From: Mobula hypostoma
Lineage: Eukaryota
DNA: 64,000 nucleotides
Reading direction: 5' to 3'
Assembly (NCBI RefSeq): GCF_963921235.1
Contig: NC_086097.1
Span: forward strand, 51,338,001-51,402,000
Below, in pieces: positions 4,971 to 58,093 of this stretch. The notes below the pieces were generated by a model. The model was given only the letters and a program-made list of their open reading frames with translations. It was not told the DNA's origin and did not search any database. The translations under genes were made by a program, and so were the position numbers. Every line of letters starts with the position of its first letter. Within the stretch, counting starts at the first letter, position 1.

Positions 4971-7900
4971 AGGAGGGATATATTGGCTTTGGAGGCAGTG
5001 CAGGGGAGGTTCACCAGGCTGATTCCAGAGATGAGAGGGTTAGACTATGAAGAGAGATTGAGTCACCTGGGACTGTACTCACTGGAATTCAGAAGAATAA
5101 GAGGGGATCTTATAGAAACATACAAAACTATGAAAGGGATAGATAAGATAGAGGCAGGAATGTTGTTTCCACTTGTAGGTAAGAGTACAGCTAGGGGACA
5201 TAGCCTCAAGATTCAGGATGGAGATGAGGAGGAACTGCTTTTACCAGAGAGTGCTGAATCTGTGGAATTCTCTGCCCAATGAAGCAAAGATATTTTAAGA
5301 CAAGGTTGGACAGTCTTTTGCATAGTAGGGGAATTAAGGGTTATGGGGAAAAGGCAGGTAGGTGGAGATGAGTCCATTGCCAGATCAGCCATGATCTTAC
5401 TGAATGGTGGAGCAGGCTTGATGGGCCAGATGGCCTACTCTTGCTCCTATTTCTGATGTTCTTATGCTCTTTTGCAAGTCTGTCACAAGCTATTGACCAG
5501 ATTATGGCTCTTTAAACAAAACAACAAACTTTTAAAGCTTTTTAAAGAGATAACAAGTTTAGAGAAGACATATCTGCATGGAGATACCAAAACAAGGAGA
5601 CATCAAGTTGTTTTAAATTACTTAACCCCATGCAAACAACCAGTGGCTAAACCAAGGATGGAATATCACACTGAGCCTGCTGAAGATAGTTAGGCTTTCC
5701 TGGGAAATTTCTGCTTTGCTGTCCTGGGACTGTAATAACCCAAAAAGGAATTCAGGAGAATATCTTCATCAAAACATTAAAACTCTCTGCCTCAGGGGAA
5801 AAATGAGGTGAACAGCAGAGAGACTTCCACAAAGAAGCTGAATAAATATGTATGGGAGCCTGGAAGAAGGATATGTTCATGCAAGTGAAATGAAGCGTGA
5901 GGCATGATCTTGATAGCACCCATTTCTGTGCTACAAATACAATGTAAAAAGCGATATCTGTTATATTCCCCTCAGCAAGGCTAAAAAAGTGTCATACACT
6001 GCACAAGTTTCAAAGCAATTGGCTACAATATTACTGTTCCAATATTTTGCTGATAAACCATATTGCAGATTCATAGGATCAACCAGATGACAAGGTGGGA
6101 TTGCTGAAAATATAACACCTGTGGTGACTGTTTGGATAACCAAACTTTATACAATAGTATAAACATGGAAATATTAAACTTTAGAAAAAACAAAAGAAAA
6201 TGAAAGCTCTCTTAATCTTAGAGCGATTACCTACCCAAAAAAGTCAAAATCAGAATCTGAATTCAACTCTTGTCATATGCCAACTATCAATATGCACACA
6301 ATAGCCTAGATTCCAATTTTTTTTTTAAAAGTTAATCATCAGCTGTGGTTTTGTGTCTAACTATATTGCTCTGCAGATTTCATTGTTTTATATGACCTGC
6401 TGGCCAATGAAAGCCAAGCAGTTCAGATCTGGAGAAAATGCTTAAAGCAGCTCCTTGTAGCATTCAGCTATTGATGCTCAGCTCTCCAGATTTGGCTGTT
6501 TTGAACAGATGCATTCAACTAGTAGGGAATTACATTGCAAACCTTTATGTTTATAGTCCAGAACGTACCCAATTTGTAATTTCTTTCTTTGTGTAAACTT
6601 TCTGTTGCTGCAGCATACAAGCTACACAGCTGTGCTGGAAACATTTCTGTGGGAATCCTAGCATGAGGCATCTCAGCTCAGCTGCAGGTAAAAGTGCCAT
6701 TAATTGCAATACAAAAAGATTGTCAGCATCAGCAGGACCCAAACTCACTTCTTGCTTGCTGTATTGATAGAATAGACTTAATAGTCCTGGCTGCAATTAT
6801 TAATGTAATCAGGGTTTGAAGAGGTTTCTAAATGACACCAGCTGCAACATAATATAGTGCTGGATACATCTGAACACCCTTCTGAATACATTAGAAGGCT
6901 ACGTGACTTAAAGTAAGTGCTGTGGGGACAACAAGCTTCCGTGCACAATACCACCTCTGTTCCCAATTTCTAATTATGACTGTGTAGGCATAGCCAGACA
7001 ACAAAGTGGAATATATACATACGGATTGTAAATGAAGTGTTGAGGAAATTATTTGGCATACATTAAAAGGGGAATAAGATCAAAGCAACAAAATGAAGTG
7101 GCAGCGTCCCATTATAAACTCAGTCATGCCTAGTGTGCACAAGGAGAAAGAGAAGAAGCAGCAAGCCATTCAGCCCCTTGTGCCTGCTCTCCCAGTTAAT
7201 AAGATTGTGGTTGAACTGCATCTTCAGGTGCATTTTCCTGTACTCATCTACCATTTCTTGTTTTACTTTACATCTAAAAATGATTAACATCTGTCTAGGA
7301 CATGCTCATCAATGACTCTCCAAAAAGGGAAAGAAACCCAAAGATTTGCTAGCCTCTGAGGAAATAAATTCTCATCTCAATCTCGAATGGCTGGACTTTC
7401 ATTCTGGGATTACGAACTATACTTCTAGACACCTTTTCTCAAGGAACATCACTCTTGAATCTAGCTGGTAAGAACTTTATAGGCTTCAATAGTATAGCCA
7501 GGGGGAACAGAATTGTGCCCATTGTTTCTGGCAAGAGGGAAAATAGTGTGGCACTCCCCCCCCCCCCAACTTTGGTAGCCCTAAAGATGTGCCCCATATG
7601 TGCTTAGGCAATCGTCTAGTCCATAAGGGGAAGACTATGTAGTCTTTGTGAGAGTCACTGTTTTAACCCTGTTATTTAAGGCCTTTTGCTCAGCTTGAGT
7701 TTGTGATATTTGTATGGTTAGTCTTAAATTTCCATGTAAACTTGAGGCACTGATGTGCTTTATTATACTGGTGTAGTAACTTTATTTAACACACTTTACT
7801 CAGTCTGATGAAAACTCAGGAGCTGTATTTTATTGAAATCTGACTTGCCTCTCCATGTACGTTTCTAACAAAACTGCTGTTTGTTCATAAAATTTGTTAT

Positions 7901-19926: not shown

Positions 19927-20121
19927 AAACAACAGGAATTCTGCAGATGCTGGAAATTCAAGCAACATACATCAAAGTTGCTGGTGAACGCAGCAGGCCA
20001 AGCAGCATCTGTAGGAAGAGGTGCAGTCGACGTTTCAGGCCAAGACCCTTCGTCAGGACTACTACTCTTCCTACAGATGCTGCTTGGCCTGCTGCCTTCA
20101 CCAGCAACTTTGATGTATGTT
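19927..20121. mobile_element. Short Penelope-derived fold-back insertion
   Basis: 57-bp inverted arms 19964-20020 / 20065-20121; TSD TTATGAAAATAGA at 19914-19926 and 20120-20132. Confidence 0.85.
20025..20060 (-). ncRNA. Minimal type I hammerhead ribozyme-like motif
   Basis: AGUC-CUGACGA-AGGGUCUUGGCCU-GAAAC-GUC-GACU, in the loop of the fold-back element. Confidence 0.68.
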
Positions 20122-25520: not shown

Positions 25521-26378
25521 AAAAACAGAAATAAATTGAATTTAATAAGTTTTCTTCCTGTGCCTGAAATATTAACAAATTAAGGAGCCAAGCTTATTAA
25601 AATTTGATAATCACCTCCTGGTGGTAACTGAAACCTTAATTATTTATTGTGGTCCATCTTAGAAATGCACTAAAATATTTCTTGATTCTTACTTAGCTCA
25701 GTGATTAACAGTGAACTGGATGCCTGCTGGTTACTTCAGATCTTGCAGAGTGGAAACTTGGCTTAGTTCAGCTCAGTAGCACCACCGTGTGTCTAAATGT
25801 AAAGTTACATTGTACATTTCATTTTGGAGGTTACAAAAACAACTTTGATCAATTTCAAAGTTCAAAGTAAATTTACTATCAAAGTATGTATACCATATAC
25901 AACCTTAAGACTCATTCTCTTGTAGGCACTTACAGTAAAACAAAGAAGCACAATATAATACACGAAAAACTCCACATATCAAACATCCAATGTGCAAAAG
26001 AGGAAAATCATACAAACAAAAACAAACAAACAAATAATAGTCATGAGCTGCAGAGAAAGTGAGTCCACAGGCTTCAGTGTTGAGGCAAGTGAAGCCAGGC
26101 TAGTAGCCCGATGGCTGCAGATTAACAGCTGCTCCTGAACCTGGCAGCATGGTACCTAAAACTCCTGCACCTACCACCCAACGATAAAAGCAAGAAGAGA
26201 GAGAAATGGGTCAAGTGCAGCTAGATGTGATGGGCTCAGGTGGGGTTTCTTGGCTGGCACGGAGTAGTGGGGCTGAACATTGATTCCTTTTCCAATCTTG
26301 GGCCTCGATGGTTTAATCTGGTTCAACACTTTAATCAGTGCTCCCTCTTTCAGCTCTCACTCTCTTGTCATTATAATA

Positions 26379-27735
26379 GTCATAGTCATACTTTATTGAT
26401 CCCGGGGGAAAATGGTTTTCGTTACAGTTGCACCATAAATAATAAATAGTAATAGAATCATAAATAGTTAAATAGTAATATGTAAATTATGCCAGGAAAT
26501 TATGAAATAAGTCCAGGACCAGCCTATTGGCTCAGGGTGTCTGACCCTCCAAGGGAGGTGTTATAAAGTTTGATGGCCACAGGCAGGAATGACTTCCTAT
26601 GATGCTCTGTGCTGCATCTCGGTGGAATGAGTCTCTGGCTGAATGTACTCCTGTGCCCAACCAGTACATTATGTAGTGGATGGGAGACATTGACCAAGAT
26701 GGTATGCAACTTAGACAGCATCCTCTTTTCAGACACCACCGTCAGAGAGTCCAGTTCCATCCCCACAACATCACTGGCCTTCCGAATGAGTTTGTTGTTT
26801 CTGTTGGTGTCTGCTACCTTCAGCCTGCTGCCCCAGCACACAACAGCAAACATGATCGCACTGGCCACCACAGACTCGTAGAACATCCTCAGCATCGTCC
26901 GGCAGATGTTAAAGGACCTCAGTCTCCTCAGGAAATAGAGACGGCTCTGACCCTTCTTGTAGACAGCCTCAGTGTTCTTAGACCAGTCCAGTTTATTGTC
27001 AATTCGTATCCCCAGGTATTTGTAATCCTCCACCATGTCCACACTGACTCCCTGGATGGAAACAGGGGTCACCGGTACCTTAGCTCTCCTCAGGTCTACC
27101 ACCAGCTCCTTAGTCTTTTTCACATTAAGCTGCAGATAATTCTGCTCACACCATGTGACAAAGTTTCCTACCGTAGCCCTGTACTCAACCTCATCTCCCT
27201 TGCTGATGCATCCAACTATGGCAGAGTCATCTGAAAACTTCTGAAGATGACAAGACTCTGTGCAGTAGCTGAAGTCCGAGGTGTAAATGGTGAAGAGAAA
27301 GGGAGACAAGACAGTCCCCTGTGGAGTCCCAGTGCTGCTGATCACTCTGTCGGACACACAGTGTTGCAAGCACACGTACTGTGGTCTGCCAGTCAGGTAA
27401 TCAAGAATCCATGATACCAGGGAAGCATCCACCTGCATCGCTGTCAGCTTCTCCCCCAGCAGAAGAGGGCGGATGGTGTTGAACGCACTGGAGAAGTCAA
27501 AAAACATGACCCTCACAGTGCTCACTGGCGTGTCCAGGTGGGCGTAGACATGGTTCAGCAGGTAGACGATGGCATCCTCAACTCCTAGTCAGGGCTGGTA
27601 GGCGAACTGGAGGGGATCTAAGTGTGGCCTGACCATAGGCTGGAGCAGCTCCAGAACAAGTCTCTCCAGGGTCTTCATGATGTGGGGGGGTCAATGCCAC
27701 CGGTCTGTAGTCATTGAGGCCGCTAGGGCGCGGCA
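26379..27735 (-). mobile_element. Rex1/Babar-clade non-LTR retrotransposon, 5'-truncated, young
   Basis: ORF 26524-27525 with FFDFSSAFNTI, PQGTVLSPFLF, KFSDD; short tandem tail (TATGAC)n at the left end. Confidence 0.85.
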
Positions 27736-28910: not shown

Positions 28911-29498
28911 TGTTTAATGAGAGTGGCATTGTTTCATGTACGTATTTTGCAATCTTAATTTTGACCTCTTCTTTTGAATATGAGGTGCTGGACTGGGCAA
29001 TTGCCAGGTTAGTTTGAAGCGGGAGAGAAAACTGCGAAACGCTGAACATGGAAAGCCCTACACCGACTTCATGAACTCATGGGTACAGGAAGGGTAACCC
29101 ATCATAGGAGTTCTTCTTGGTCATTTACCCACGGTTCCAGAGGAATCTTTCCTGTAGGTCCTATTAGCCAGCTCCACTATCTATCTCAGTGTTAACCACT
29201 GATATTGGTAACCCAGCCAATTATAAAACTATAGATATATTTGCTGCACAACAGGTTGATTGACCTATTATAATCATGTTGGTCAAAAATCGAGTGTCAT
29301 TTAATCTGCTGAAAAATAAATAAAAAAAACTGCTGACTGTGAAATAAAGAGAAAACTCTGGAAATACCAATATATCAGACATTATGTATGGAAAGAGAAA
29401 CAGAATTATTGTTTCATGTCAGAGACCTTTTTTCAAAAGTGATTCATCTCATTTTCAAGCTCTTGCTCCAAAACCCTGCAAAGCAGGTTTCTGTTTAG

Positions 29499-30375
29499 TC
29501 AAGTCATAGTCATACTTTATTGATCCCAGGGGGAGATTGGTTTTCGTTACAGTTGCACCATAAATAATAAATAGTAATAGAACCATAAATAGTTAAATAG
29601 TAATATGTAAATTATGCCAGTAAATTGTGAAATAAGTCTAGGACCAGCCTATTGGCACGGGGTGGCTGACCCCCAAGGGAGGAGTTGTAAAGTTTGATGG
29701 CCACAGGCAGGAATGACTTCCTATGACACTCTGTGCTGCATCTTGGAGGAATGGGTCTCTGCCTGAATGTACTCCTGTGCCCACCCAGTACATTATGTAG
29801 TGGATGGGAGACATTGACCAAGATGGCATGCAACTTAGACAGCATCCTCTTTTCAGACACCACGGTGAGAGAGTCCAGTTCCATCCCCACAACATCACTG
29901 GCCTTACGAATGAGTTTGTTGATTCTGTTGGTGTCTGTTACCCTCAGCCTGCTGCCCCAGCACACAACAGCAAACATGATAGCACTGGCCACCACAGACT
30001 CATAGGACATCCTCAGCATTGTCCGGCAGATGTTAAAGGACCTCAGTCTCCTCAGGAAATAGAGACGGCTCTGACCGTTCTTGTAGATAGCCTCAGTGTT
30101 CTTAGACCAGTCCAGTTTATTGTCAATTCGTATCCCCAGGTATTTGTAATCCTCCACCATGTCCACACTGACCCCCTGGATGGAAACAGGGGTCACTGGT
30201 ACCTTAGCTCTCCTCAGATCTACCACCAGCTCCTTAGTCTTTTTCACATTAAGCTGCAGATAATTCTGCTCACACCATGTGACAAAGTTTCCTACCGTAG
30301 CCCTGTACTCAACTTCATCTCCCTTGCTGATGAATCCAACTATGGCAGAGTCATCCGAAAACTTCTGAAGATGAC
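29499..30375 (-). mobile_element. Second, shorter copy of the same Rex1/Babar-clade element
   Basis: Near-identical to 26379-27250 including 3' UTR and tail; truncated just upstream of HLQKFSDD. Confidence 0.85.
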
Positions 30376-32750: not shown

Positions 32751-34554
32751 CATAGGTGTTATACATCAATTTGAATAATAAATGATGCATTCTTGATTTG
32801 CGCTTTGTGAATGGTGGAAAGGCTTTGGGAAATTGGAAGGTGTCACTCACTGCTGGTTACATAGCCCTGATCTCATCTTTTGAAAAAAGATCTCAAACGT
32901 AACATCTGTAACCAGATGAATGTTGAATATAATTTTTTATTGTTAAAGTGTACTTAGGTATTCACCCTGGTAATGCTAAAACAGCTGCCTGTGCATTTAA
33001 GAGAAAATGATGATGTAAATTTTGCACGGGTGGAGTAGAAAGAAGAATTGCAAGGTTCAAGAAAGGACATCAAATGCTGGTTGTATGGTGAGGAAAGATT
33101 TTCGCGAGTAGGGTAACGGCGCTAGTTAGTGTGGTTGTGCGAAGTCCCTTACCGGCTTAGTAGGTTAGTCTCTTGTAATTTAGGCTCCAAGGCAATATAT
33201 TGTAAAAGTTTATTTTTGTCTTTATTGTTTCATGACCGAATGTGAATGTGTTAATCTGTTTACGTAGCATGAGCGAGAAGAACTTGTTTCAGGGTCTAGC
33301 TATATGTGTTTGGAAGTTGAGCATATGTGTGCCAAACTGAGTGTAACTTTCAGTTAAATGAGATGTATTTATTCATTTTTTATGTGTATGAAGTATGGGG
33401 TTGGTGGGATACTAATGTTGTTTGTATTTTTTTAGAATTGCCACCGATGTATTGCTTTTGTATATTTTGCTTTATTTATTTTCATACTGCATATGTAACA
33501 GGGATGTGGACTAAAATTAAGCTGAAATTGTAACAGCAGGAACTGTGTTTTTTTAAAATCCATTTTGTCATTTTTAATTTGATACCCTCTTTCTGCATTA
33601 AACCACCTAAATAAATTAAAGACCCGAAAAAGTATTTGTTGTCCTGCATGTGCATTTTTCCCGAGGCTACAAAACACCTATTAACATTTCTTTTATACCT
33701 AGTTGGATTTTCATAAAGTTTATACAGTAAGTATGAAATGTTTGATGTACAGAGACTTGAATCACCAGAACACAAGTCATCCAAAATATGTAGTGAGCAG
33801 AGGGAACATTTTGAGTTGTCTAACAAATGAACAAGGTTCTGGAGATTGCAATTTAACACTGGCATTGATAGTAGTTTGTGCAATTTAAGAAGTTTTAGTT
33901 GTTATACATCAATTTAAATATATTAAACAGTCCTGTTGAGTCATAGAACACCACAGCAGAAACAGGTCCTTCATCTCATCTAGTCTATGTCAAACTATTA
34001 TTCTGCCTATAGTCCCATTGATCTATACCCAGACCATAGATTTCCATAGCCCGCCCATCCATGTACCTATCCAAATTTCTCTTAAATGTTGAAATCGAAC
34101 TCACACACACCACTTCTGCTGGCACCTCATTCCCCACACTCATCACCCTCTGAGTGAAGATGTTGCCACTAATATTCCCCTTAAACATTTCACTTTATAC
34201 CCTTAACCCATGACCTCTAGTTCTAGTCTCACTCAACCTCAGTGGAAAAAGCTTGTATACACTTACCCTAACTTTAACTTCATAATTTTATATACCTCTA
34301 TCAAATCTCCCCTCATGAAGTCCAGAACGCTTCAACCTTTCCCTAAAACTCAGGTCCTCAAGTCCTGGCAACAACCTTGTAAATTTTCTATCCACTCTTT
34401 CAGTCTTATGACATCTTTCCTGTAGGTACCGCAGATAATACTGCATATAGATATTTGCAGCACAACAGGTCATTGACCTTATGATCATGCTGGTCAAAAA
34501 TGGACAGTGTTTAATCCTGAAAAATAAATTTTAAAAAACTCCTGACTGTGAGAT

Positions 34555-35070
34555 AAGGAAAAAATTAATCAAATTTGCAGATTTATTAGGTAAAGTCCGT
34601 AAAGGAGCCGAACGGTCCAAAGCTGGAGATAAACAGGTATTAAGATCTCCGCCCCAAATCAATGAAAACTCGTTCAAATTCGGAAACTGATCAAACAATG
34701 ATTTATAAAATTCCGGACAATCCATATTAGGAGCATAAACATTAACCAAAACTACTTTTTTATTAAATAATAAACCACTAACCAATAAAAATCTACCATT
34801 CGGATCAGAGATAATATCCTGTTGTATAAAAGTAACTGAGGAGTCTATAAAAATAGAGACGCCTCGAATCTTAGCATTGGAGTTCGAATGAAATTGTTGT
34901 CCCTTCCAAAATTTGAAAAAACGTAGTCTGTCCCCCCTCCGTACATGGGTCTCTTGTAAAAATAAAATTTGTGCTTTAAGTCTCCGGAACACTTTAAAAA
35001 CTTTTTTCCTTTTAATAGGATGATTAAGACCATTAGTATTCCAGGAGACAAAATAAATAATAGACTCCAT
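34555..35070 (-). CDS. L1 ORF2 N-terminal part (APE endonuclease, first ~172 aa), cut by the inversion
   Basis: MESIIYFVSWNTNGLNHPIKR...FLQETH...NVYAPN...GGDLN; ends KSANLINFFL, the same peptide that begins the plus-strand part. Confidence 0.9.
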
Positions 35071-35791
35071 AAATCCTAAAGTCAACCCATAACAAGGAGG
35101 ATTGACAATAGGCGCGACCCACAGACCCGGAGAGGAAACAGAACATACAAAAGATACCGGGGAAAAGGACGTAACCAATACTTCAATAATGTATATAGCC
35201 CAAAGAGAAACAAACTAAAACGTGAAGCCCCTCCCACCACCCCCCACCCCAGGACCCCAAGGCGAAATCTAAAGCAGACCCGCCAGAAAGAAGCAAGCGC
35301 TAAAACTACCCCCATGACTTCCGGTATACGCTCCCTAAAAAAAAGGTATAAATATGAAAAGGATCAGCTAATTGTAAAACAGTAAAAAAAATAAGTAAAA
35401 AAAAGTTAGCTCAATTAAAATACACACAGAACAGAACAAAAGCCGGAAAGTATATATTAAAAAAAAACCACAATAAACCTCAAACTCATGAATAGACACA
35501 GCAACAAAAAAAATAGGATTATTAACATAAAATGATTATAAAAAGCAAAACAGAATAAAATTTAAAAAAAACTACAAAATTTAAGGCCGCACAGGAAATA
35601 CGTAAGATGACAAAAGGGAAGTAACCACCCAGAATCCCCTGGGAAAAGAAAGAAATGACGCAGTTAAAAAGAAAGTTTAGCAGCCATATTAAGAAATCAA
35701 AAGTAAACTTTTCTGCCCAAATAGGGCACAGAAAAGTTAAAACCAACCAATTCACAGCCTCCGATCAACGGAGAAAATTAAAAAAAGGCAA

Positions 35792-36691
35792 TTAAGATGT
35801 TGAAGATGAAAGTTGATCCAGATAACTCTGGGCATCCGATGGAGAATCAAAAAAACGAAGAGCTCCATCTAACATGCGAATCCTTAGACGTGCAGGGTAC
35901 AGCAGCGCTGGTCTTAAATCCATCTTATAGAATTCCGACATCACGGATCTGTAACGGACCCGTTGGTCCCAGATTGGTTTACTGAAATCTTCCACGAATC
36001 GGAACTTAAGATCCGAAAAATCAATGAAACCTTTAGATCGAGCGAATCGAAACAGTCTCTCCTTGTCTTGAAAGTAATGAAAACGTAAAATAACATGCCT
36101 AGGTCTATCTGACCTAGACGAGTATGATGGGATTCTGTGAACACGATCCAGTAGCGGTGGTTGGTCAGGAAATACAGTAGGGAATGCATCTTTTAAAAGT
36201 TGGGAGAAATATTTCATAGGGTTGTTAGCTTCCACGGCTTCCCTGACGCCAATCATTCGTAAATTCTGCCGTCGCATTCTAGATTCCAAGTCAGAGTTTT
36301 TAAAAGTCAAAAAGTCAAGTTTCTTCTTCATTACATTAATTGTTTCTTCGACTTTCCCCATCTTAAGCTCACTTTGTTGCGCGGATTTTTGAAGACCAGA
36401 TATAGCCGACTGATGTTCCGCAATACATGTTTGCATCTTATCAATTAAGTCGGCAATTTTCTGGAACTTAGTTGAGATTTCCATATGAATCAGGTCTTTA
36501 ACAGAGCCCATAATTTCTGTACGAATCATCTCCCTAACAGAGGTTGAAATTTCCCTCTGAATTAACTCCGATATAGCTTCCAAAGTCACCGGTGATTCAG
36601 TCGGAGGGAGATCCGTAGCTTTCGGTTTAACCGGAGGTTTACCATCCTTGCCGTCTTTCCCGTTCTTAGACATAGCCGATCTCAGTATCAT
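35792..36691 (-). CDS. L1 ORF1p (coiled coil + RRM + CTD, transposase_22-like), uninterrupted
   Basis: Motifs DLESRMRRQNLRMIGVRE, LDRVHRI, PRHVILRFHYFQDKE and LLYPARLRI are typical of vertebrate L1 ORF1. Confidence 0.9.
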   Translation of the reverse strand: MILRSAMSKNGKDGKDGKPPVKPKATDLPPTESPVTLEAISELIQREISTSVREMIRTEIMGSVKDLIHMEISTKFQKIADLIDKMQTCIAEHQSAISGLQKSAQQSELKMGKVEETINVMKKKLDFLTFKNSDLESRMRRQNLRMIGVREAVEANNPMKYFSQLLKDAFPTVFPDQPPLLDRVHRIPSYSSRSDRPRHVILRFHYFQDKERLFRFARSKGFIDFSDLKFRFVEDFSKPIWDQRVRYRSVMSEFYKMDLRPALLYPARLRIRMLDGALRFFDSPSDAQSYLDQLSSSTS

Positions 36692-36794
36692 CCAATTGTC
36701 AGAGAATTCAGTTTAATTCAAAGTATTGTAAAAATTGATGCCTTAATAGTTAATTAAAGTATAGCTGACCATAGAGAGAAAAAACTCAGAGGTA

Positions 36795-39700
36795 ATGGAG
36801 CGAGTCAAAAATTTAATTAAATCTGCAAATTTGATTAATTTTTTCCTTTCTGATTCTGGGTCGACGGACATTTGGCGTTTTCTGCATCCTCAGGAAAAAG
36901 ATTTTTCCTTCTTTTCACATGTTCATCATTCCTATTCAAGAATTGATTATTTTTTCATTGATTCTCGTCTCATTCCTTCAGTGATTAAATGTGATTATGA
37001 TTCTATAACCATTTCGGATCATGCTCCACTTAAGCTTTCTATTAAAATTATGGCCAATATACCAAACAATAGACAATGGCGTTTTAATTCGCTGTTGCTT
37101 CAGGACTCGGACTTTGTTAATTTTATGAATGAACAGATTGAGCTTTTTTTTACAATTAACCATACAGAAGATATTTCGGTTAACACTCTTTGGGACACTT
37201 TTAAAGCCTATATTCGGGGTCAGATTATTTCGTATTCCGTTGCTTTGAGGAAGAAACAGAAGCAGGAGGAGATGGTAATTGTGGACAAGATTAAAGAAAT
37301 TGATAAGAAATATGTTATGGCTCCTTCTGAGGAGCTATACAAACAAAGAACTGAACTTCAAATGGAACACAGTTTACTACTCTCGTCCTCGATTGTAAAC
37401 CAATTAAAGAAAACAAGAAGTGATTTTTATGTTCACAGTGATAAAATTGGCAAGCTGCTGGCTAATCAATTGAAATCTAATTATGTTAAATCTCAAATCA
37501 ATCAGATTTATAACCAAAATGATCGATTGATATTGGATCATGTGGGGATTAATCAAACCTTTTGTGATTTTTATTCTTCTTTATACCAATCAGAGTCTCC
37601 TCGAGATTCTAAATATATGAATGATTTTTTAGATAAGTTAGACTTCCCTCTGATTTCACAGGATATGTCTTCTTTATTAGATACTTCCATTACAATGGAT
37701 GAGATTAAGAATGTTATTTTTTCTATGAATCTGGGGAAAGCTCCTGGCCCTGATGGGTTTACCGTTGAATTTTATAAATGTTTTGCTTCTTTATTGATTC
37801 CTTGGCTCTATAAGGTTTTTGAGGCTTCTTTGAAACTTGGTAAACTTCCGGAATCTTTTAATAGAGCATCAATTTCTTTAATACTAAAGAAGGATAAAGA
37901 CCCTGCTCAATGTGCATCTTATAGACCAATATCTTTATTAAATGTTGATTCTAAAGTTTTTTCTAAGTTATTAGCAAATAGACTAGAAAAAGTACTTCCT
38001 TCTATTATTTCGGAAGACCAAACGGGTTTTATTAAAGGTCGTTACTCTTTTTATAATATTCGTACATTGTTAAATATCGTTTATACTCCCTCACAAAATG
38101 TTCCTGAGTGTGTTATTTCTTTAGATGCCGAGAAAACTTTTGATAGAGTAGAATGGCCTTATTTATTTAAGGTGCTTGAAATGTTTAATTTTAGCTTGAA
38201 ATTTATATCCTGGATTAAACTGTTATATTACTCCCCTGTAGCCTCGGTTCGTACTAACTCCTTAAACTCACCTTTTTTTCCTCTCTTTCGTGGTACTCGA
38301 CAAGGCTGTCCTCTTAGTCCCCTATTATTTGATATTGCATTAGAACCTCTTGCAATTGCTATTCGAGAATCTTTAAATATTACTGGGATAACTCGGGGAT
38401 TAAAGTCCCATAAATTATCACTCTATGCTGATGATTTACTTTTATATATTTCTAATCCTGAGAGATCCATTCCTGCTGTTTTAGAGTTATTAGCACAATT
38501 TGGTCTTTTCTCAGGTTATAAATTAAATCTTAGTAAGAGTGAACTTTTTCCGATTAATAAACATCTTCCCTTATATTATAAATTTCCATTTAAATTGATT
38601 AATAATTACTTTTCATATCTTGGGATTAAAATTACTTGTAAACATAAAGATTTATTTAAGACTAACTTTTTACCATTAATAGACCATATTACTCAACTTT
38701 CATCTAAATGGTTTCCCTTATATTTAACTTTGATTGGTCGTATTAATGCAGTTAAGATGTTTTTTTTGCCAAAATTTTTATATGTGTTTCAGGCATTACC
38801 AATTTTCATTCCTAAATCTTTTTTTGATAAAGTTGACTCTAAAATTTCTTCATTTATTTGGCAGAACAAGAATCCGAGACTGGGTAAAATACATTTACAG
38901 AAAGCTAAGAGAGATGGAGGTTTAGCATTACCTAACTTTAGATTTTATTATTGGGCTATTAATATTCGACATATGAAATTTTGGTTACTTGACCGGGATA
39001 TACTATTTATTCCTAAATGGGTAGCATTGGAATTACAATCTGTTCAGGGTTATACACTTGGTTCTATTTTAGGTTCCTCTCTTCCTTTTGATTCGAAACG
39101 TCTTAAGCAGGTCTCTAACCCGATAGTTAAATATGCTTTGCGCATTTGGTTTCAATTCAGAAAATTTTTTGATCTTAATCAATTCGGGTTAGCGATTCCT
39201 ATTTTAGGTAACATATTTTTTCCTCCCTCTTTTACGGATCGCGCTTTTCAAACTTGGAAGACTAAGGGTATTTTACGGTTTTTGGATTTATTTTTAGATG
39301 GTTCCCTTATGTCTTTTGAACAATTATCTAATAAATATAACTTATCAAGAATACATTTTTTTAGATATTTACAAGTTAGAAATTTCCTAAGTACTATACT
39401 TACTTCCTTTCCAATGCTTCCTCCTATATATATTTTAGATTCGATAATTAACCTTAATCCATGTCAGAAAGGTGCATCGGCTATGATTTATAATATTATT
39501 ATGAAACTTAGGAAAGCTCCATTTGATAAGATTAGGGTAGATTGGGAACAGGAATTGGGGCTTACCATTTCTGTGGATGATTGGGGGCAGATTTTACAAT
39601 TAGTTAATACTTCCTCTATTTGTGCTAAACATTCCCTAATTCAATTTAAAGTGGTTCATAGAGCACATATGTCCAAAGATAAGTTAGCGCGTTTTTACTC

Positions 39701-40109
39701 GCATATTAATCCTTTCTGTGATAGATGTTCGGGGCAGATAGCCTCTTTAACTCATATGTTTTGGTCTTGCCCTACTTTGGAAACTTTTTGGAGAGATATT
39801 TTCAATATTATTTCTAAGGTATTAAATATAGATATCTCTCCTCACCCTATTACTGCTATCTTTGGACTACCTAAAATTTCTAGTAATCTTTCCCCTTCAG
39901 CCCGTAGAATGATTGCATTTCTTACTTTAATGGCGAAAAGATGTATTTTACAACATTGGAAAGAGCTTAATGCTCCAACTACCTTTTTTTGGTTTTCTCA
40001 GACGATTTTATGTTTGAATCTGGAGAAAATTAGAAGTAACCTTTATGATTCTTCATTTAAATTTGAACAGATTTGGGGACCTTTTATTCGATATTTTCAT
40101 TTAATGTAA
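36795..40109 (+). CDS. L1 ORF2 remainder (end of APE, reverse transcriptase, Cys-rich C-terminus), 1104 aa, uninterrupted
   Basis: SRIDY, SDH, KAPGPDG, YRPISLLN, RQGCPLSP, YADD and CxxC...HMFWSC motifs. The first ~8 residues derive from the inversion junction. Confidence 0.95.
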   Translation: MERVKNLIKSANLINFFLSDSGSTDIWRFLHPQEKDFSFFSHVHHSYSRIDYFFIDSRLIPSVIKCDYDSITISDHAPLKLSIKIMANIPNNRQWRFNSLLLQDSDFVNFMNEQIELFFTINHTEDISVNTLWDTFKAYIRGQIISYSVALRKKQKQEEMVIVDKIKEIDKKYVMAPSEELYKQRTELQMEHSLLLSSSIVNQLKKTRSDFYVHSDKIGKLLANQLKSNYVKSQINQIYNQNDRLILDHVGINQTFCDFYSSLYQSESPRDSKYMNDFLDKLDFPLISQDMSSLLDTSITMDEIKNVIFSMNLGKAPGPDGFTVEFYKCFASLLIPWLYKVFEASLKLGKLPESFNRASISLILKKDKDPAQCASYRPISLLNVDSKVFSKLLANRLEKVLPSIISEDQTGFIKGRYSFYNIRTLLNIVYTPSQNVPECVISLDAEKTFDRVEWPYLFKVLEMFNFSLKFISWIKLLYYSPVASVRTNSLNSPFFPLFRGTRQGCPLSPLLFDIALEPLAIAIRESLNITGITRGLKSHKLSLYADDLLLYISNPERSIPAVLELLAQFGLFSGYKLNLSKSELFPINKHLPLYYKFPFKLINNYFSYLGIKITCKHKDLFKTNFLPLIDHITQLSSKWFPLYLTLIGRINAVKMFFLPKFLYVFQALPIFIPKSFFDKVDSKISSFIWQNKNPRLGKIHLQKAKRDGGLALPNFRFYYWAINIRHMKFWLLDRDILFIPKWVALELQSVQGYTLGSILGSSLPFDSKRLKQVSNPIVKYALRIWFQFRKFFDLNQFGLAIPILGNIFFPPSFTDRAFQTWKTKGILRFLDLFLDGSLMSFEQLSNKYNLSRIHFFRYLQVRNFLSTILTSFPMLPPIYILDSIINLNPCQKGASAMIYNIIMKLRKAPFDKIRVDWEQELGLTISVDDWGQILQLVNTSSICAKHSLIQFKVVHRAHMSKDKLARFYSHINPFCDRCSGQIASLTHMFWSCPTLETFWRDIFNIISKVLNIDISPHPITAIFGLPKISSNLSPSARRMIAFLTLMAKRCILQHWKELNAPTTFFWFSQTILCLNLEKIRSNLYDSSFKFEQIWGPFIRYFHLM

Positions 40110-40697
40110 TATTTACCCTTCTTGTTTTTTCTTCACTGTTTTAATGGAGGTCGGGATTGAGGACGTGATTTTAAGTTTAACTCTGTTTGGTTTCAAGTTA
40201 GCCCATTGCTTTGCTTTGCTTTTAGTTAGTTGCACGGTGGGTTTTTTTTGGGGTTTTTTTTTTTTTCTTTTTTTTTCCATTGATATATATAAAATTTAGT
40301 ATACTATTATGTTATCTTGGTTTCTTATGCTTAAATTACATTGTTTGTAGTATTTTCTTTTTGGTATTGTTATCTTTTGGAATTTTATTATACTTTAACA
40401 TTGTATTAATGTTTATATGGCTTACCTTTTTTGTATACTTACTCAATAAAAAGATTTAAAAAGAAAGAAAGAAAGACTGTGAGATAAGGACAAAACCCTG
40501 GAAATGCCAATATATCAGGCATCATCTATGGAAAGAGAAACAGGGTTATTATGCCCAGAACTACACATAATACAGTATTCTAAATTTGGTTTCACCAATG
40601 TCTTATGCAACGTCAACATAACATCCTAAATCCTGTACTCGGTACTTTGATTTATGAAAGCCAATGTGTCAAAAGCTCTCATTATGATCCCAATATA

Positions 40698-42102
40698 CAG
40701 TGCCTATAAAAAAGTATTCACCCCCCCTTGAAAAAACAGATCTCTACAAAGTGATCTAAATTAATTACAAATTTAAACCACAATATAGTTGATTGCATAA
40801 GTATTCACCCCTTTTAATATGGCACACCAAATCATCACTGGTTTCAGAAGTCACATAATTAGTTAAATGAAGATTGCCTTGTGTAGTCAAGGCATTTCAA
40901 TTGATTGTAGTAAAAGTACACCCGAATCTGGAAAGGTCCAACTGCTGGTCAATCAGTAACCCCTCAAAAACTGTATCATGAAAACAAAAGAACATTCAAA
41001 CCAACTGCGCGAAAAGGTTATTGAAAAGCACAAGTCAGGAGATGGATGCAAGAAAATTTCCAAGTTACTGGATATCTCTTGGAGTAGTTAAGTCAATCAC
41101 CAAGAAATGGAAAGAATACGTCACAGCTATAAATCTGCCTAGAGCAGGCGATCATCAAAACGTGAGTGACCGTGCAAGAAGGGAACTGGTGAGGGAGGCT
41201 ACCAAGAGACCTATGACAAATCTGAAGGAGTTACAAGCTTCAGTGGCTAAGATGGAAGAGACTACGCATACAATAACCGTTGCCCAGGTGCTTCACCAGT
41301 CACGGCTTTATGGGAGAGTGGCAAAGAGAAAGCCACTGTTGAAAAAATCTCACATGAAATCTCGGCTAGTTTGTTAGAAGGCATGTGGGAAATTCTGAAG
41401 TCAGCTGGAAGAAAGTTCTATGATCTGATGAAAACAAAATTGAGCTTTTTGGCCAGCAACTAAACGCTATGTTTCGTATAAGCCAAACACCGTGCATCAA
41501 AAACACACCATCCCAACCGTAAAGCATGGCTGTGGCTACATCATGCTATGGGGATGCTTCAATGCAGCAGGCCCTGGAAGGCTTGTGAAGGTAGAGGGTA
41601 AAATGAATACAGCAAACAACAGGGAAATCCTGGAGGAAAACCTGATGCAGTCTGCAACTTGGGAGATTTGTTTCCCAGCAAGATAATGACCCAAGCATAA
41701 AGCCAATGCTACATAGGAATAGCTCAAAAACAAGAAAGTTAATGTCCTGGAGTGGCCAAGTCAGAGTCCTTTCCTCAATCCAATTGAGAATTTGCGGCTG
41801 GACTTGAACAGGACTGTTCACTCACAATCCCCACGCAATCTGACAGAGCTTGAGCAGTTTTGTAAAGAAGGGGATAAATTGCAGTGTTCAGATGTGCAAA
41901 GCTGATGGAGACCAATACTAATGCAATCAACTATTTTGTGGTTTATATTTGTAATTAATTTAGATCACTTTGTAGAGATCTGTTTCAACTTTGACAAGAG
42001 AGTCTTTTTGTGTTGATCAGTGTCAAAAAAAAAGTCAAATTAAATCCACTGTGATTCCATGTTGTAAAATAATAAAACATGAAAAATTCCAAGGGGGCAC
42101 TA
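40698..42102 (+). mobile_element. Tc1-type DNA transposon with long IR/DR terminal repeats, decayed transposase
   Basis: Begins TA|CAGTGCCTATAAAAAAGTATTCACCCC and ends GGGGGCACTA|TA. Inner repeat AAGTATTCACCCC near 40800; 40733-40798 is inverted against ~41920-41986. Frameshifted peptides GRVAKRKPLL, PTVKHGCGYIMLWGCF and [13 protein letters not shown]. Confidence 0.9.
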
Positions 42103-53758: not shown

Positions 53759-54927
53759 TGTTGCAACAGGGCATTTGGAAGCAGACCCAAGAGCAGGACA
53801 CAGATTTGTAAGAAGCATTTACAGAAGTGTGTTTATTAATAGTTGCCAGGAAAGCCGGGGAGCGAGGATAGAATGCTTACGCGGACGAGGATGCAGGACA
53901 ACAAACAGGAGGAGCTCAGACACGGAGCCTGGACTTGGACACGGATCCTGGACTTGGACTTGGACTTGGAGATGGAGCCTGGACTTAAGTCTTCGACCTG
54001 GAGCCTGGACTTGGACTTGGACACAGACACAGAGCCTGGACTTGAACTTGAATTCGGACATGGAGCCTGGACTTGGACTTGGAGCGTGGACTTGGACCCG
54101 AAGCCTGGACTTGGACTTGGACTCAGACTTGGACCTGGAGCCTGGACTTGGATTTGGACACGGAGATACAGAATACCTAACTCGGAGTAGCGGCAAACGG
54201 CCGGACCTACTCAGCTGGAAACGGAGCGACCAAACCAAACAACAACAGACAATCCATATCTTGACACGGAGTAGCACATGAAGCAGCCAACGGACGGCAA
54301 TCACTCAGCTGGACACGCAGAGACAGAATTTCCAACTCGGAGTAGCGGCAAACGGTTGGACCTACTCAGCTGGAAACAAGATGACTAACCCAACCAATGA
54401 CTGACAATACGAAACTTGACATGGAGTAGCTCATGAAGCGGCAAATGTCTGGCAATCACTTAGCTGGACACGAAGAGACAGAATTCCCAACTCGGAGTGG
54501 CGGCAAACAGCCTGACCGACTCAGCTGGAAATCAGATGACAAAAACCAAACAATGACAGTCCGTTTGTATCTTGGCTCGGAGTGGCGACAATCGGCCAGC
54601 AATCTTAGCCAGTCATGAAAACGACAAAATTCGCATCTTGACTCGGAGTAGCGGCAAAACGGCCAACAACTCAGCTGGACACGAAAACGACTGAATTCAC
54701 TAAGCAGCCACAGGCACTGAAGCAACTTAGAGTCCATGATTCTCGGCGGCTCCAGGATGAGCATAGCCGCACTGGCTATGGTGATGAACCAGCAATGAGT
54801 AGATGTAAGCCGGAGTTTTTATGCTGCTGGTTCGAATGAGGATCAGGTGCCCTACTCAAGGAGCCCAGTGGAACACGGGGAAAAGGAAATTAACTGAAAT
54901 AAGTAGTCAACGGACTGGACAGTGACA
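53759..54927 (-). mobile_element. Solo LTR-like element related to 56680-58093, with different internal repeats
   Basis: Minus strand starts TGTCACTGTCCAGTCCGT and ends CTTGGGTCTG...GCAACA, matching both ends of the other element; AATAAA on minus near 53833; no TSD seen. Confidence 0.65.
53922..54690. repeat. (GGACTT)n/GGAGCCT array followed by a longer unit repeated about 3.5 times
   Basis: 53922-54160 hexamer-based array; ACTCGGAGT.GCGGCAAAC...ACTCAGCTGGA recurs near 54180, 54335, 54490 and 54640. Confidence 0.88.
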
Positions 54928-56679: not shown

Positions 56680-58093
56680 TGTCATGGTCCAGTCCGTGAA
56701 GTCCGTATTCTGGTTCACAGTCCGGTCCATCGATCCTTGCCCCAGGTTTTCCTGTCTACCCTGTTTCTGTTCTTCTTGAGCTAAGTGAGGCAGCTGATGC
56801 TTGTTGGGGCTGGTTGCACAAATAGCTTCAGAGACCCAGGTGTGGCTGCTGGATTGTTCTTGTCCTTACTCCTTGTATCCCTTCCTCTGCCTCCTGTTTC
56901 CTTGCCTGTAGCCCTGCCTTGTCTTGCCGGTAACTCTCGCCTCGCCTGGAGTTTTCGTCTCACCTTGCTTTGCCAGAAGCCTTGCTTTGTCTTGCCAGTA
57001 ACTCTCGCCTCACCTGAAGTTCTCGTCTTGCCTTGCATTGCCTGAAGTCTTGCCTTGTCTTGTTGGTATCTCTCGCCTCGTCTCGCCTGCAGTCTTGTCC
57101 TGGAGCCACCCTGTACCTAGCTCCCTTTCTGTCCCTTGCCTCAGCCGGGTAAGCCAGGCCGTCTCGCCGTTACCTGCGGTTGGTTCTGTGCCTTCCTGTC
57201 CCATGCCTCCGTCGGGTGGTGATCTGCACTCTGCCCAGGAGTACCGTGCCCTGCCCCGGAGGAGCCTGCCTAGCCTCGAGCCTGAAGATTCCAGCCTCCT
57301 GCCTAGCCTTGAGCCTGAAGACTGCAGCCTCCTGCCTAGCCTCGAGCCTGAAGACTGCAGCCTCCTGCCTAGCCTCGAGCCTGAAGACTGCAGCCTCCTG
57401 CCTAGCCTCGAGACTGAAGACTGCAGCCTCCTGCCTAGCCTCACCTCAAGCCTCCAGCCTCCTGACAAGCCTCGCCTCAAGTCTCCAGCCTCCTGCCAAA
57501 CCTCACCTCGTCTCCAGCCTCCTGCCAAGCCTCGCCTCGTCTCCAGCCTCCTGCCAAGCCTCGCCTCAAGTCTCCAGCCTCCTGCCAAACCTCGCCTCAA
57601 GTCTCCAGCCTCCTGCCAAGCCTCGCCTCAAGTCTCCAGCCTCCAGCCAAGCCTCGCCTCAAGTCTCCAGCCTCCTGCCAAGCCTTGCCTCGTCTCCAGC
57701 CTCCTGCCAAGCCTTGCCTCATCTCCAGCCTCCTGCCAAGCCTTGCCTCGTCTCCATCCTCCTGCCAAGCCTCGCTTCAAGCCTTGCCTCAAGTCTCCTG
57801 CCAAGCCTCGTCTCAAGCCTCCAAGTCTCCAGCCTCATCCTGCCTGTCAGCCAAGCCTCGTCCTTGCCTAGTTCTGGGGTCTGAGCCAGAGGCAAGACCC
57901 AGGCACTGGGTCCTTGTCCAGTCTCTGGCTCGGAGTCCAAGCCCGGGCTCCTAGCTCTTTTGTCCAGTCCTGTTCCAGGTTCCTGGTTTTCTTGTCCATG
58001 TTCTTGCCATCGCCCTGTATCCTAGTCCTGTCCCTACTACTTCAGTGTCTGTGTCTTGCACTTGGGTCTGTTCCTAGCCACCTCCATATGACA
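56680..58093 (+). mobile_element. Solo LTR-like element with internal minisatellites
   Basis: Termini TGTCAT...ATGACA; 4-bp TSD GCTC (56676-56679, 58094-58097); interrupts an old L1 fragment. Confidence 0.8.
57262..57860. repeat. Compound minisatellite: ~5 x 33 bp, then ~12 x 28-31 bp
   Basis: Units AGCCTCGAGCCTGAAGACTGCAGCCTCCTGCCT and CAAGCCTCGCCTC(AA)GTCTCCAGCCTCCTGC. Confidence 0.92.

What the first reader, a model, noticed from the sequence alone, without database searches (positions are those of the whole stretch)
34544..40490. Twin-priming 5' inversion of a complete L1 in a probable non-mammalian genome
Seen: one 16-bp TSD encloses an inverted 5' part and a forward 3' part. The inverted part starts where the L1 sense sequence TTTTTTCCTT is complementary to the TSD 3' end (AAGGA, 5-nt microhomology). 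The 31-mer TAAATCTGCAAATTTGATTAATTTTTTCCTT is present in both parts (34555-34585 inverted, 36818-36848 forward), so the junction has a duplication, not a deletion. A short filler AAAAATTTAAT resembles the inverted copy. Established: these are the hallmarks of twin priming, best documented for mammalian L1. Unusual here: the inverted segment retains the 5' UTR, ORF1, spacer and EN, and the target does not look like TTTT/AA.
Basis: partly seen in the sequence, partly recalled or inferred. Interest (0 to 1): 0.7.

Follow-up and report, generated by a model that had tools for sequence, protein, structure and literature searches.

The report
Front-flipped L1 insertion in a ray
A young, essentially full-length L1 jumping gene landed in a ray-like fish genome with its front 2.2 kb flipped, the same copying accident that is common in human L1s, so this is a clean example of a known process in a new host, not a new process.

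Summary
The structure is real. An exact 16-nt target-site duplication encloses a fish-type L1 whose 5' 2.25 kb is inverted. That part holds the 5' UTR, ORF1, spacer and only the first half of the endonuclease. A related species carries the empty site with one copy of the 16-mer, and a deep contig from public runs shows the family collinear through a single copy of the 31-mer. The inverted arm starts on a 5-nt match to the target end, a match found at 14 of 5,874 element positions. This fits twin priming on one RNA (about 0.85). The 31-nt junction duplication is ordinary: 17% of human inversions have one, median 22 bp. The 11-nt filler may be a snap-back copy (modest support). No displayed read spans this copy's junctions, and no genome was available to count inversions. 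The host is probably a batoid (closest named ORF2 relative 70%, stingray). The scan already noted similar flips on other DNA, including an RTE in this genome (unchecked). New member of a known kind.

The parts
34544..34559 (+). Left target-site duplication (16 nt; last 5 nt shared with the inverted L1 arm)
   Evidence: single copy at the empty site, record 25
34555..34559 (+). 5-nt microhomology AAGGA, proposed second (internal) priming site; pairs with L1 sense 36844-36848 and extends to 8 of 9 nt with one bulge
34555..34585 (-). Inverted copy of the duplicated 31-mer
34555..35070 (-). ORF2 N-terminal endonuclease half (the frame runs on through the TSD to a stop at 34531; 179 aa)
35071..35791 (-). 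ORF1-ORF2 spacer, 721 nt
35792..36673 (-). ORF1, 293 aa, open; like human L1 ORF1p; no CCHC knuckle
   Evidence: (E 2e-15)
36674..36808 (-). 5' UTR, about 135 nt; a family contig aligns up to 36808
   Evidence: (record 21)
36807..36817 (+). Junction filler of 9-11 nt; 10 of 11 match to the reverse complement of 36834-36844, in register with a 4-bp stem
36795..36797 (+). ATG in the antisense 5' UTR, in frame with the forward ORF2 remnant (1,104-aa frame made by the junction)
36818..36848 (+). Forward copy of the duplicated 31-mer (end of the first-strand cDNA)
36818..40109 (+). ORF2 remainder: C-terminal endonuclease half, RT, C-terminal CX2CX8HX4C; open
   Evidence: (E 5e-160 to human ORF2p)
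40110..40457 (+). T-rich 3' UTR with AATAAA at 40445-40450
40458..40474 (+). A-rich tail, A5 then (GAAA)3; the TSD's first GA continues the repeat
40475..40490 (+). Right target-site duplication

Best explanation
One L1 ribonucleoprotein made staggered nicks about 16 nt apart and reverse-transcribed one full-length RNA from both DNA ends (twin priming). Shown: the end structure, the empty site, the collinear family, the microhomology and the duplication. Inferred steps: (1) the bottom-strand nick (…AGTC/AG) primed on the A-rich GAAA tail through a 2-nt match, and copying ran 3.66 kb to 36818. (2) The top-strand overhang ending AAGGA paired with the RNA at 36844-36848 and was extended 2.25 kb to the RNA's 5' end; the first cDNA had passed this site by 31 nt, which gives the duplication. 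(3) The cDNA ends lacked useful homology; the first cDNA end probably folded back on a 4-bp stem and copied 9-11 nt, making a T run that paired with the AA end of the second cDNA, and host end-joining closed the gap. The copy cannot move again because the endonuclease is split between opposite strands.
For: Exact TSD. Empty site with one TSD copy in organism B, 8 differences in 334 nt and no gaps (record 25); an in-window paralogue of the site also holds one diverged copy (83% over 191 columns). Family collinear with one 31-mer (X7 joint). A perfect match of 5 or more at 14 of 5,874 positions; about 70% of human inverted L1s have 2-5 nt matches, and their TSD lengths resemble those of full-length L1s, which peak at 14-16 bp (PMC2912911). 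Duplications in 283 of 1,703 human inversions, median 22 bp (bioRxiv 2024.08.27.596794). The inverted arm ends at or near the element's 5' end and carries no flank DNA. The filler matches with at most one mismatch only at the two copies of the duplicated segment within 6.2 kb, and forms 14 of 16 pairs with a 6-nt loop.
Against: No displayed contig spans this copy's junctions. X1, X2 and X7 show zero depth at the three listed left-flank positions (34435, 34446, 34468), and X1 and X2 show no contig with the window's letter at 36449 or 38136; only 15 of 229 joints were displayed. It is one copy, with no genome-wide frequency. The snap-back step is weak: shuffled-filler P = 0.05 for any nearby arm and 0.025 at the fixed register, it needs two mismatches, and the hairpin is no more stable than shuffles (z 0.12). 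Human inversions are typically also 5'-deleted, with a median inverted arm of 0.54 kb.
Confidence: 0.85

Rival explanations
1. Post-insertion inversion: a normal full-length L1 inserted first, and a later replication or repair template switch flipped its 5' part, leaving the duplication and filler.
For: Microhomology, a short duplication and a templated filler are also marks of microhomology-mediated repair (PMC5728401 passages).
Against: One breakpoint must fall within a base or two of the TSD/element border and no flank DNA is inverted. TSDs and 31-mers are still identical and the copy is about 0.6% from family contigs, leaving little time for two events.
Confidence: 0.05
2. Two RNAs of the same family were primed, one at each nick, and the two cDNAs were joined.
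For: Two-template priming at one site is described for mammalian L1 (snRNA/L1 chimeras, PMC4476161; two mRNAs at one site, bioRxiv 2024.12.14.628481). An overlap of 31 nt is easy with two templates.
Against: Independent templates would bring the two breakpoints within 31 nt of each other in 5.9 kb only about 1% of the time (my estimate). Both arms match deep contigs of one family.
Confidence: 0.05
3. Assembly artefact: a collinear copy was mis-joined.
For: Junction-spanning reads were not seen, and the family is very repetitive in organism A.
Against: A mis-join would not be expected to create an 11-nt filler, a 31-nt duplication and a break exactly at a TSD confirmed by an independent empty site. 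Both frames are free of stops and frameshifts.
Confidence: 0.04
4. Two separate head-to-head insertions of the same family at one spot.
For: The family is high-copy.
Against: The minus arm has no 3' end or tail, there is one TSD pair, and the arms complement each other to one full element with a 31-nt overlap.
Confidence: 0.01

Closest known systems
5'-inverted (twin-primed) human and chimpanzee L1 insertions (model of Ostertag and Kazazian 2001, not held, known through citing papers; PMC2912911; bioRxiv 2024.08.27.596794; PMC12350158)
   Same: One TSD of about 16 nt, inverted 5' arm, forward 3' arm with polyadenylation signal and A-rich tail, 2-5 nt microhomology at the 5' junction, short duplication at the inversion point, forward arm longer than inverted arm.
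   Different: Host is probably a ray; little or no 5' deletion; arms of 2.25 and 3.66 kb against human medians of 0.54 and 1.51 kb; first nick at GTC/AG, not TTTT/AA; tail of GAAA repeats.
Fish and frog L1 families (PMC5381506, sections 7 and 9)
   Same: 5' UTR 135 nt (fish 113-267), ORF1 882 nt (780-1,059), spacer 721 nt (311-730), total about 5,880 nt (5,380-7,293), T-rich 3' UTR, AATAAA.
   Different: The 5' end does not match the zebrafish start motif given there; the tail is not pure poly(A); that paper does not mention inversions (0 occurrences).
Snap-back synthesis at cDNA or break ends (SD-MMEJ, PMC5728401; R2 insertions, PMC11371274)
   Same: A short inverted-repeat stem at a 3' end followed by a templated inverted copy of nearby sequence.
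   Different: Here it would explain only the 9-11-nt filler, with two mismatches; it cannot produce the 2.25-kb inverted arm, which has no forward counterpart.

Membership tests
L1 clade LINE (vertebrate, fish type) | ORF1 of the L1 ORF1p type (coiled coil, RRM, CTD), without gag-like knuckles | tested here: met
   PF02994 E 4e-10; human ORF1p E 2e-15; no CX2CX4HX4C
L1 clade LINE (vertebrate, fish type) | ORF2 with APE endonuclease, RT and C-terminal CCHC | tested here: met
   human ORF2p E 5e-160 against R2 proteins E 1e-23
L1 clade LINE (vertebrate, fish type) | Short 5' UTR, long spacer, T-rich 3' UTR, AATAAA and A-rich tail, TSD | tested here: met
   against PMC5381506 Table 2
L1 clade LINE (vertebrate, fish type) | RT phylogeny places it in L1 and not Tx1 | not tested
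   no tree with named references was built; the named homologues listed are from a stingray and teleost fishes
Twin-primed 5'-inverted insertion | One TSD of 10-20 nt around both arms; pre-insertion site with one copy | tested here: met
Twin-primed 5'-inverted insertion | Inverted arm begins directly at the TSD with microhomology to the sense RNA | tested here: met
   5 nt; 14 of 5,874 positions match as well or better
Twin-primed 5'-inverted insertion | Both arms from one collinear template, meeting with a small deletion or duplication | tested here: met
   X7 joint with 31 shared letters; protein overlap. A single RNA molecule is inferred, not shown.
Twin-primed 5'-inverted insertion | Short complementarity between the two cDNA ends at the inversion junction | tested here: inconclusive
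   a 9-11-nt filler lies there; 2 nt may be shared with the L1 5' end
Twin-primed 5'-inverted insertion | First nick at the element's own endonuclease consensus | not testable with these tools
   the human TTTT/AA is absent, but this family's consensus is unknown because no other insertion sites could be fetched
Twin-primed 5'-inverted insertion | Junctions present in raw reads | tested here: inconclusive
   no displayed spanning contig; left flank uncovered in X1, X2 and X7; tables truncated

The most novel reading that the evidence does not exclude
In cartilaginous fishes twin priming is a frequent outcome for L1 and does not need a T-rich target or a pure poly(A) tail. It often runs to the RNA's 5' end and so yields head-to-head alleles that keep the promoter and an intact ORF1 pointing outward. 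Such alleles could supply ORF1p and antisense L1 RNA that regulate the family. This one could also give an endonuclease-less RT from the in-frame ATG that the inverted UTR supplies at 36795.
Probability: 0.1. Interest if true: 0.55.

Novelty: new member of a known kind. Interest (0 to 1): 0.3.

Why it matters
Cell assays found 5' inversions almost only for human L1 in human cells (none for L1 in chicken DT40 cells, one zebrafish Nimb-2 insert) and proposed that they depend on host and element (PMC4245944). A genomic example in a probable ray, with a confirmed empty site and a non-T-rich target, suggests that the pathway is old in vertebrate L1 and not tied to the mammalian target motif. One copy cannot give a rate, and the result is what the TPRT model leads one to expect for any LINE that makes long staggered cuts.

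Tried and rejected
No whole genome is held, so inverted and truncated copies could not be counted. A 24-nt 3'-end pattern found 0 matches in metagenome contigs; ORF2 patterns matched 101 stretches, none confirmed. No RNA holder is listed on record; X7 is only guessed to be RNA, so nothing is claimed about expression. The left flank had no cover in X1, X2 and X7, which proves nothing either way. The duplex-energy ranking of the priming site (9th of 381 sites with 2 or more terminal pairs) is not used: the forced terminal pair did not hold in several top rows. Folding gave no support for a stable hairpin. X7 record 24 (245 nt, depth 2.9, 27 differences) was dropped from the divergence count as a different subfamily; 7 of the 8 listed X7 pieces were counted. 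Rfam: 0 matches in the window. The ORF1 homologue search gave only 34-40% hits. Snap-back as the cause of the whole inversion was rejected because it would give an inverted duplication. Literature searches for non-mammalian twin priming listed no title or abstract start reporting it in a cartilaginous fish or other non-mammalian vertebrate genome; one search was swamped by unrelated papers, and three key papers were not held.
Full report
OBSERVATION. A 16-nt direct repeat lies at 34544-34559 and 40475-40490. It is exact, extends no further and occurs nowhere else in the window. A 31-nt perfect inverted repeat has arms at 34555-34585 and 36818-36848. Chance expectations are about 5e-6 and 1e-9. 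Between the direct repeats, the minus strand carries a 293-aa ORF1 and the first ~170 residues of ORF2, and the plus strand carries the rest of ORF2, a T-rich 3' UTR, AATAAA and an A5(GAAA)3 tail. All five tested ORF2 relatives that include the N-terminus split between the two strands at the same place; the sixth, P0026, covers only the forward arm. P0012 overlaps by ten residues, which equals the duplication.

ELEMENT AND HOST. ORF1 matches human L1 ORF1p (E 2e-15) and has no gag-like knuckle. The forward ORF2 part matches human ORF2p (E 5e-160; R2 proteins 1e-23). Part sizes (5' UTR 135, ORF1 882, spacer 721, total about 5,880 nt) fall inside the fish ranges of PMC5381506 Table 2, and the sense strand is T-rich. 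The most identical of the 120 listed ORF2 relatives is a Hypanus sabinus gene model (70% over 65% of the query); the other named hits are teleost proteins at 44-48%. A batoid or other cartilaginous fish is therefore likely; this is inference. No tree was built.

INDEPENDENT DATA. No genome is held. I laid 4 of the 23 listed runs. (a) Organism B (X9) has a 334-nt contig running 34360-34543 and then 40475-40624, with 8 differences and no gaps. This is the empty site with one copy of the 16-mer. A paralogue of the site in the window (29223-29410, 83%) also has one diverged copy. (b) X7 has a contig at depth 1,485 that joins 34586 to 36818 on opposite strands with 31 shared letters, so the family is collinear and the 31-mer was duplicated in this copy. 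(c) Seven of the eight listed X7 pieces differ from the copy at 10 of 1,301 bases (inverted arm) and 1 of 450 (forward arm); the eighth, a depth-2.9 piece with 27 differences, was left out. The copy is young, about 0.6% from the family against 2.4% flank divergence to organism B. (d) An X7 contig aligns from its second base at 36808. Neighbouring listed contigs are 200-330 nt long, so a chance break here is unlikely and the inverted arm probably reaches the family's 5' end; the true first base is not shown. Against: no displayed contig crosses this copy's own junctions. X1, X2 and X7 have zero depth at the three listed left-flank positions, and X1 and X2 show no contig with the window's letter at 36449 or 38136. 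Only 15 of 229 joints and 24 of 3,549 loose ends were displayed, and the tool warns that holes prove nothing. Whether organism A is the window's species or carries this insertion is unknown.

JUNCTIONS. 5' junction: the TSD ends in AAGGA, the complement of sense 36844-36848. A perfect match of 5 or more occurs at 14 of 5,874 element positions (0.24%), and the pairing extends to 8 of 9 with one bulge. 3' junction: the bottom-strand nick reads …AGTC/AG, not TTTT/AA, and the TSD's first GA continues the GAAA tail, a 2-nt match. Whether this target and tail are family traits could not be tested. Inversion junction: the 11-mer at 36807-36817 matches with one mismatch only the two copies of the duplicated segment in 6.2 kb. 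On the bottom strand it sits in register with a 4-bp stem already present in the cDNA, giving 14 of 16 pairs and a 6-nt loop; the next best register gives 8 of 11. Nulls: P = 0.007 for element composition, 0.04 for AT-only and 0.05 for shuffled filler in any nearby arm; 0.0002, 0.006 and 0.025 at the fixed register. The hairpin is no more stable than shuffles. Snap-back synthesis is thus plausible but only modestly supported.

MECHANISM. Twin priming on one RNA explains all three junctions (0.85). The tail-primed cDNA ran 3.66 kb and passed the internal priming site by 31 nt; the second nick primed internally and ran 2.25 kb to the 5' end; host end-joining, perhaps after a snap-back, sealed the ends. 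These steps are inferred from the end state. Rivals are post-insertion inversion (0.05), two RNAs (0.05), mis-assembly (0.04) and two insertions (0.01). Consequences, also inferred: the copy is dead because its endonuclease is split; the presumed promoter and intact ORF1 face left into the flank; the antisense UTR supplies an ATG at 36795 in frame with a 1,104-aa endonuclease-truncated ORF2. No expression evidence was obtained.

COMPARISON. In human and chimpanzee, 639 of 2,068 species-specific L1 insertions are 5'-inverted, about 70% with 2-5-nt microhomology, and their TSD lengths resemble those of full-length L1s, which peak at 14-16 bp (PMC2912911, parts 1-3 of 5 read). In tumours, 283 of 1,703 inversions carry an internal duplication (median 22 bp), arms have medians of 1.51 and 0.54 kb with correlated lengths, and a 5' deletion is typical (bioRxiv 2024.08.27.596794, passages). 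Duplications also appear in germline data (PMC12350158, passages). The duplication is therefore ordinary and the retained 5' end is the uncommon trait. PMC4245944 (passages) found inversions only for human L1 in human cells apart from one Nimb-2 insert in DT40 cells. Also seen: PMC4476161, bioRxiv 2024.12.14.628481, PMC5728401, PMC11371274 and PMC3747384 (passages); PMC5381506 (abstract, passages, sections 7 and 9); PMC5389967 (reference-list hit only). Ostertag and Kazazian 2001 and two papers on vertebrate LINE insertion sites that I recall as covering zebrafish were not held and may report non-mammalian inversions. Seven searches listed no such report; I saw only listings for most hits. No supplements were read; those of the bioRxiv preprints are closed and may hold the share of inversions that keep the 5' end.

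EARLIER SCAN NOTES. The scan has noted the same pattern on other DNA: an RTE in this genome (e1-7812926, claiming about one in ten long copies), a dinoflagellate LINE (e1-7627652) and an L1/Tx1-like copy (e1-7513827). I could not check them and do not count them as support.

VERDICT. Real and well explained: a twin-primed L1 in a probable ray, a new member of a known kind. Interest 0.3.

Noticed in passing
window 34435-34559 + 40491-40550, and 29223-29410: The L1 landed in a ~190-nt piece that has an 83% identical copy 5 kb upstream. The piece interrupts an older high-copy repeat (33979-34426, resuming near 40570); contigs of that repeat join 34428 to 40570-40596. It looks like an old local copy-paste into a CR1-like fragment (label recalled; no Pfam hit), giving three nested layers.
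   Followed up: partly
window 36795-40109: The inverted 5' UTR supplies an in-frame ATG (G at -3 and +4) for a 1,104-aa endonuclease-truncated ORF2. Probably chance; no expression data.
   Followed up: partly
window 40458-40476: The tail is A5(GAAA)3 and not pure poly(A), and the target begins with GA in register; it is unknown whether this is family-wide.
   Followed up: no
window 40697-41985: Decayed Tc1-type transposon (PF01498) with a 72-nt inverted repeat at 40734-40805 and 41914-41985 (96%). The left end begins TA-CAGTG about 35 nt outside the repeat and the right side seems to lack the matching terminus.
   Followed up: partly
window 26378-27251 and 29502-30375: Two 95.5% identical fragments of another RT-bearing LINE, 3 kb apart on the minus strand.
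   Followed up: no
window 19964-20121: A 160-nt imperfect palindrome made of head-to-head repeat ends.
   Followed up: no
window 53919-54698 and 56902-57860: Complex tandem arrays with periods of about 6-57, 155, 66, 68 and 31 nt, some giving long low-complexity open frames.
   Followed up: no
window 36482-36559 (runs X1, X2): A family variant replaces 76 nt of ORF1 with 4 nt (net in-frame loss of 72 nt) at depth 294 and 168, a possible ORF1-shortened subfamily.
   Followed up: no
protein P0026: A stingray gene model named IQ calmodulin-binding motif protein consists of 717 residues that align end to end with this L1 ORF2; probably an annotation artefact.
   Followed up: no
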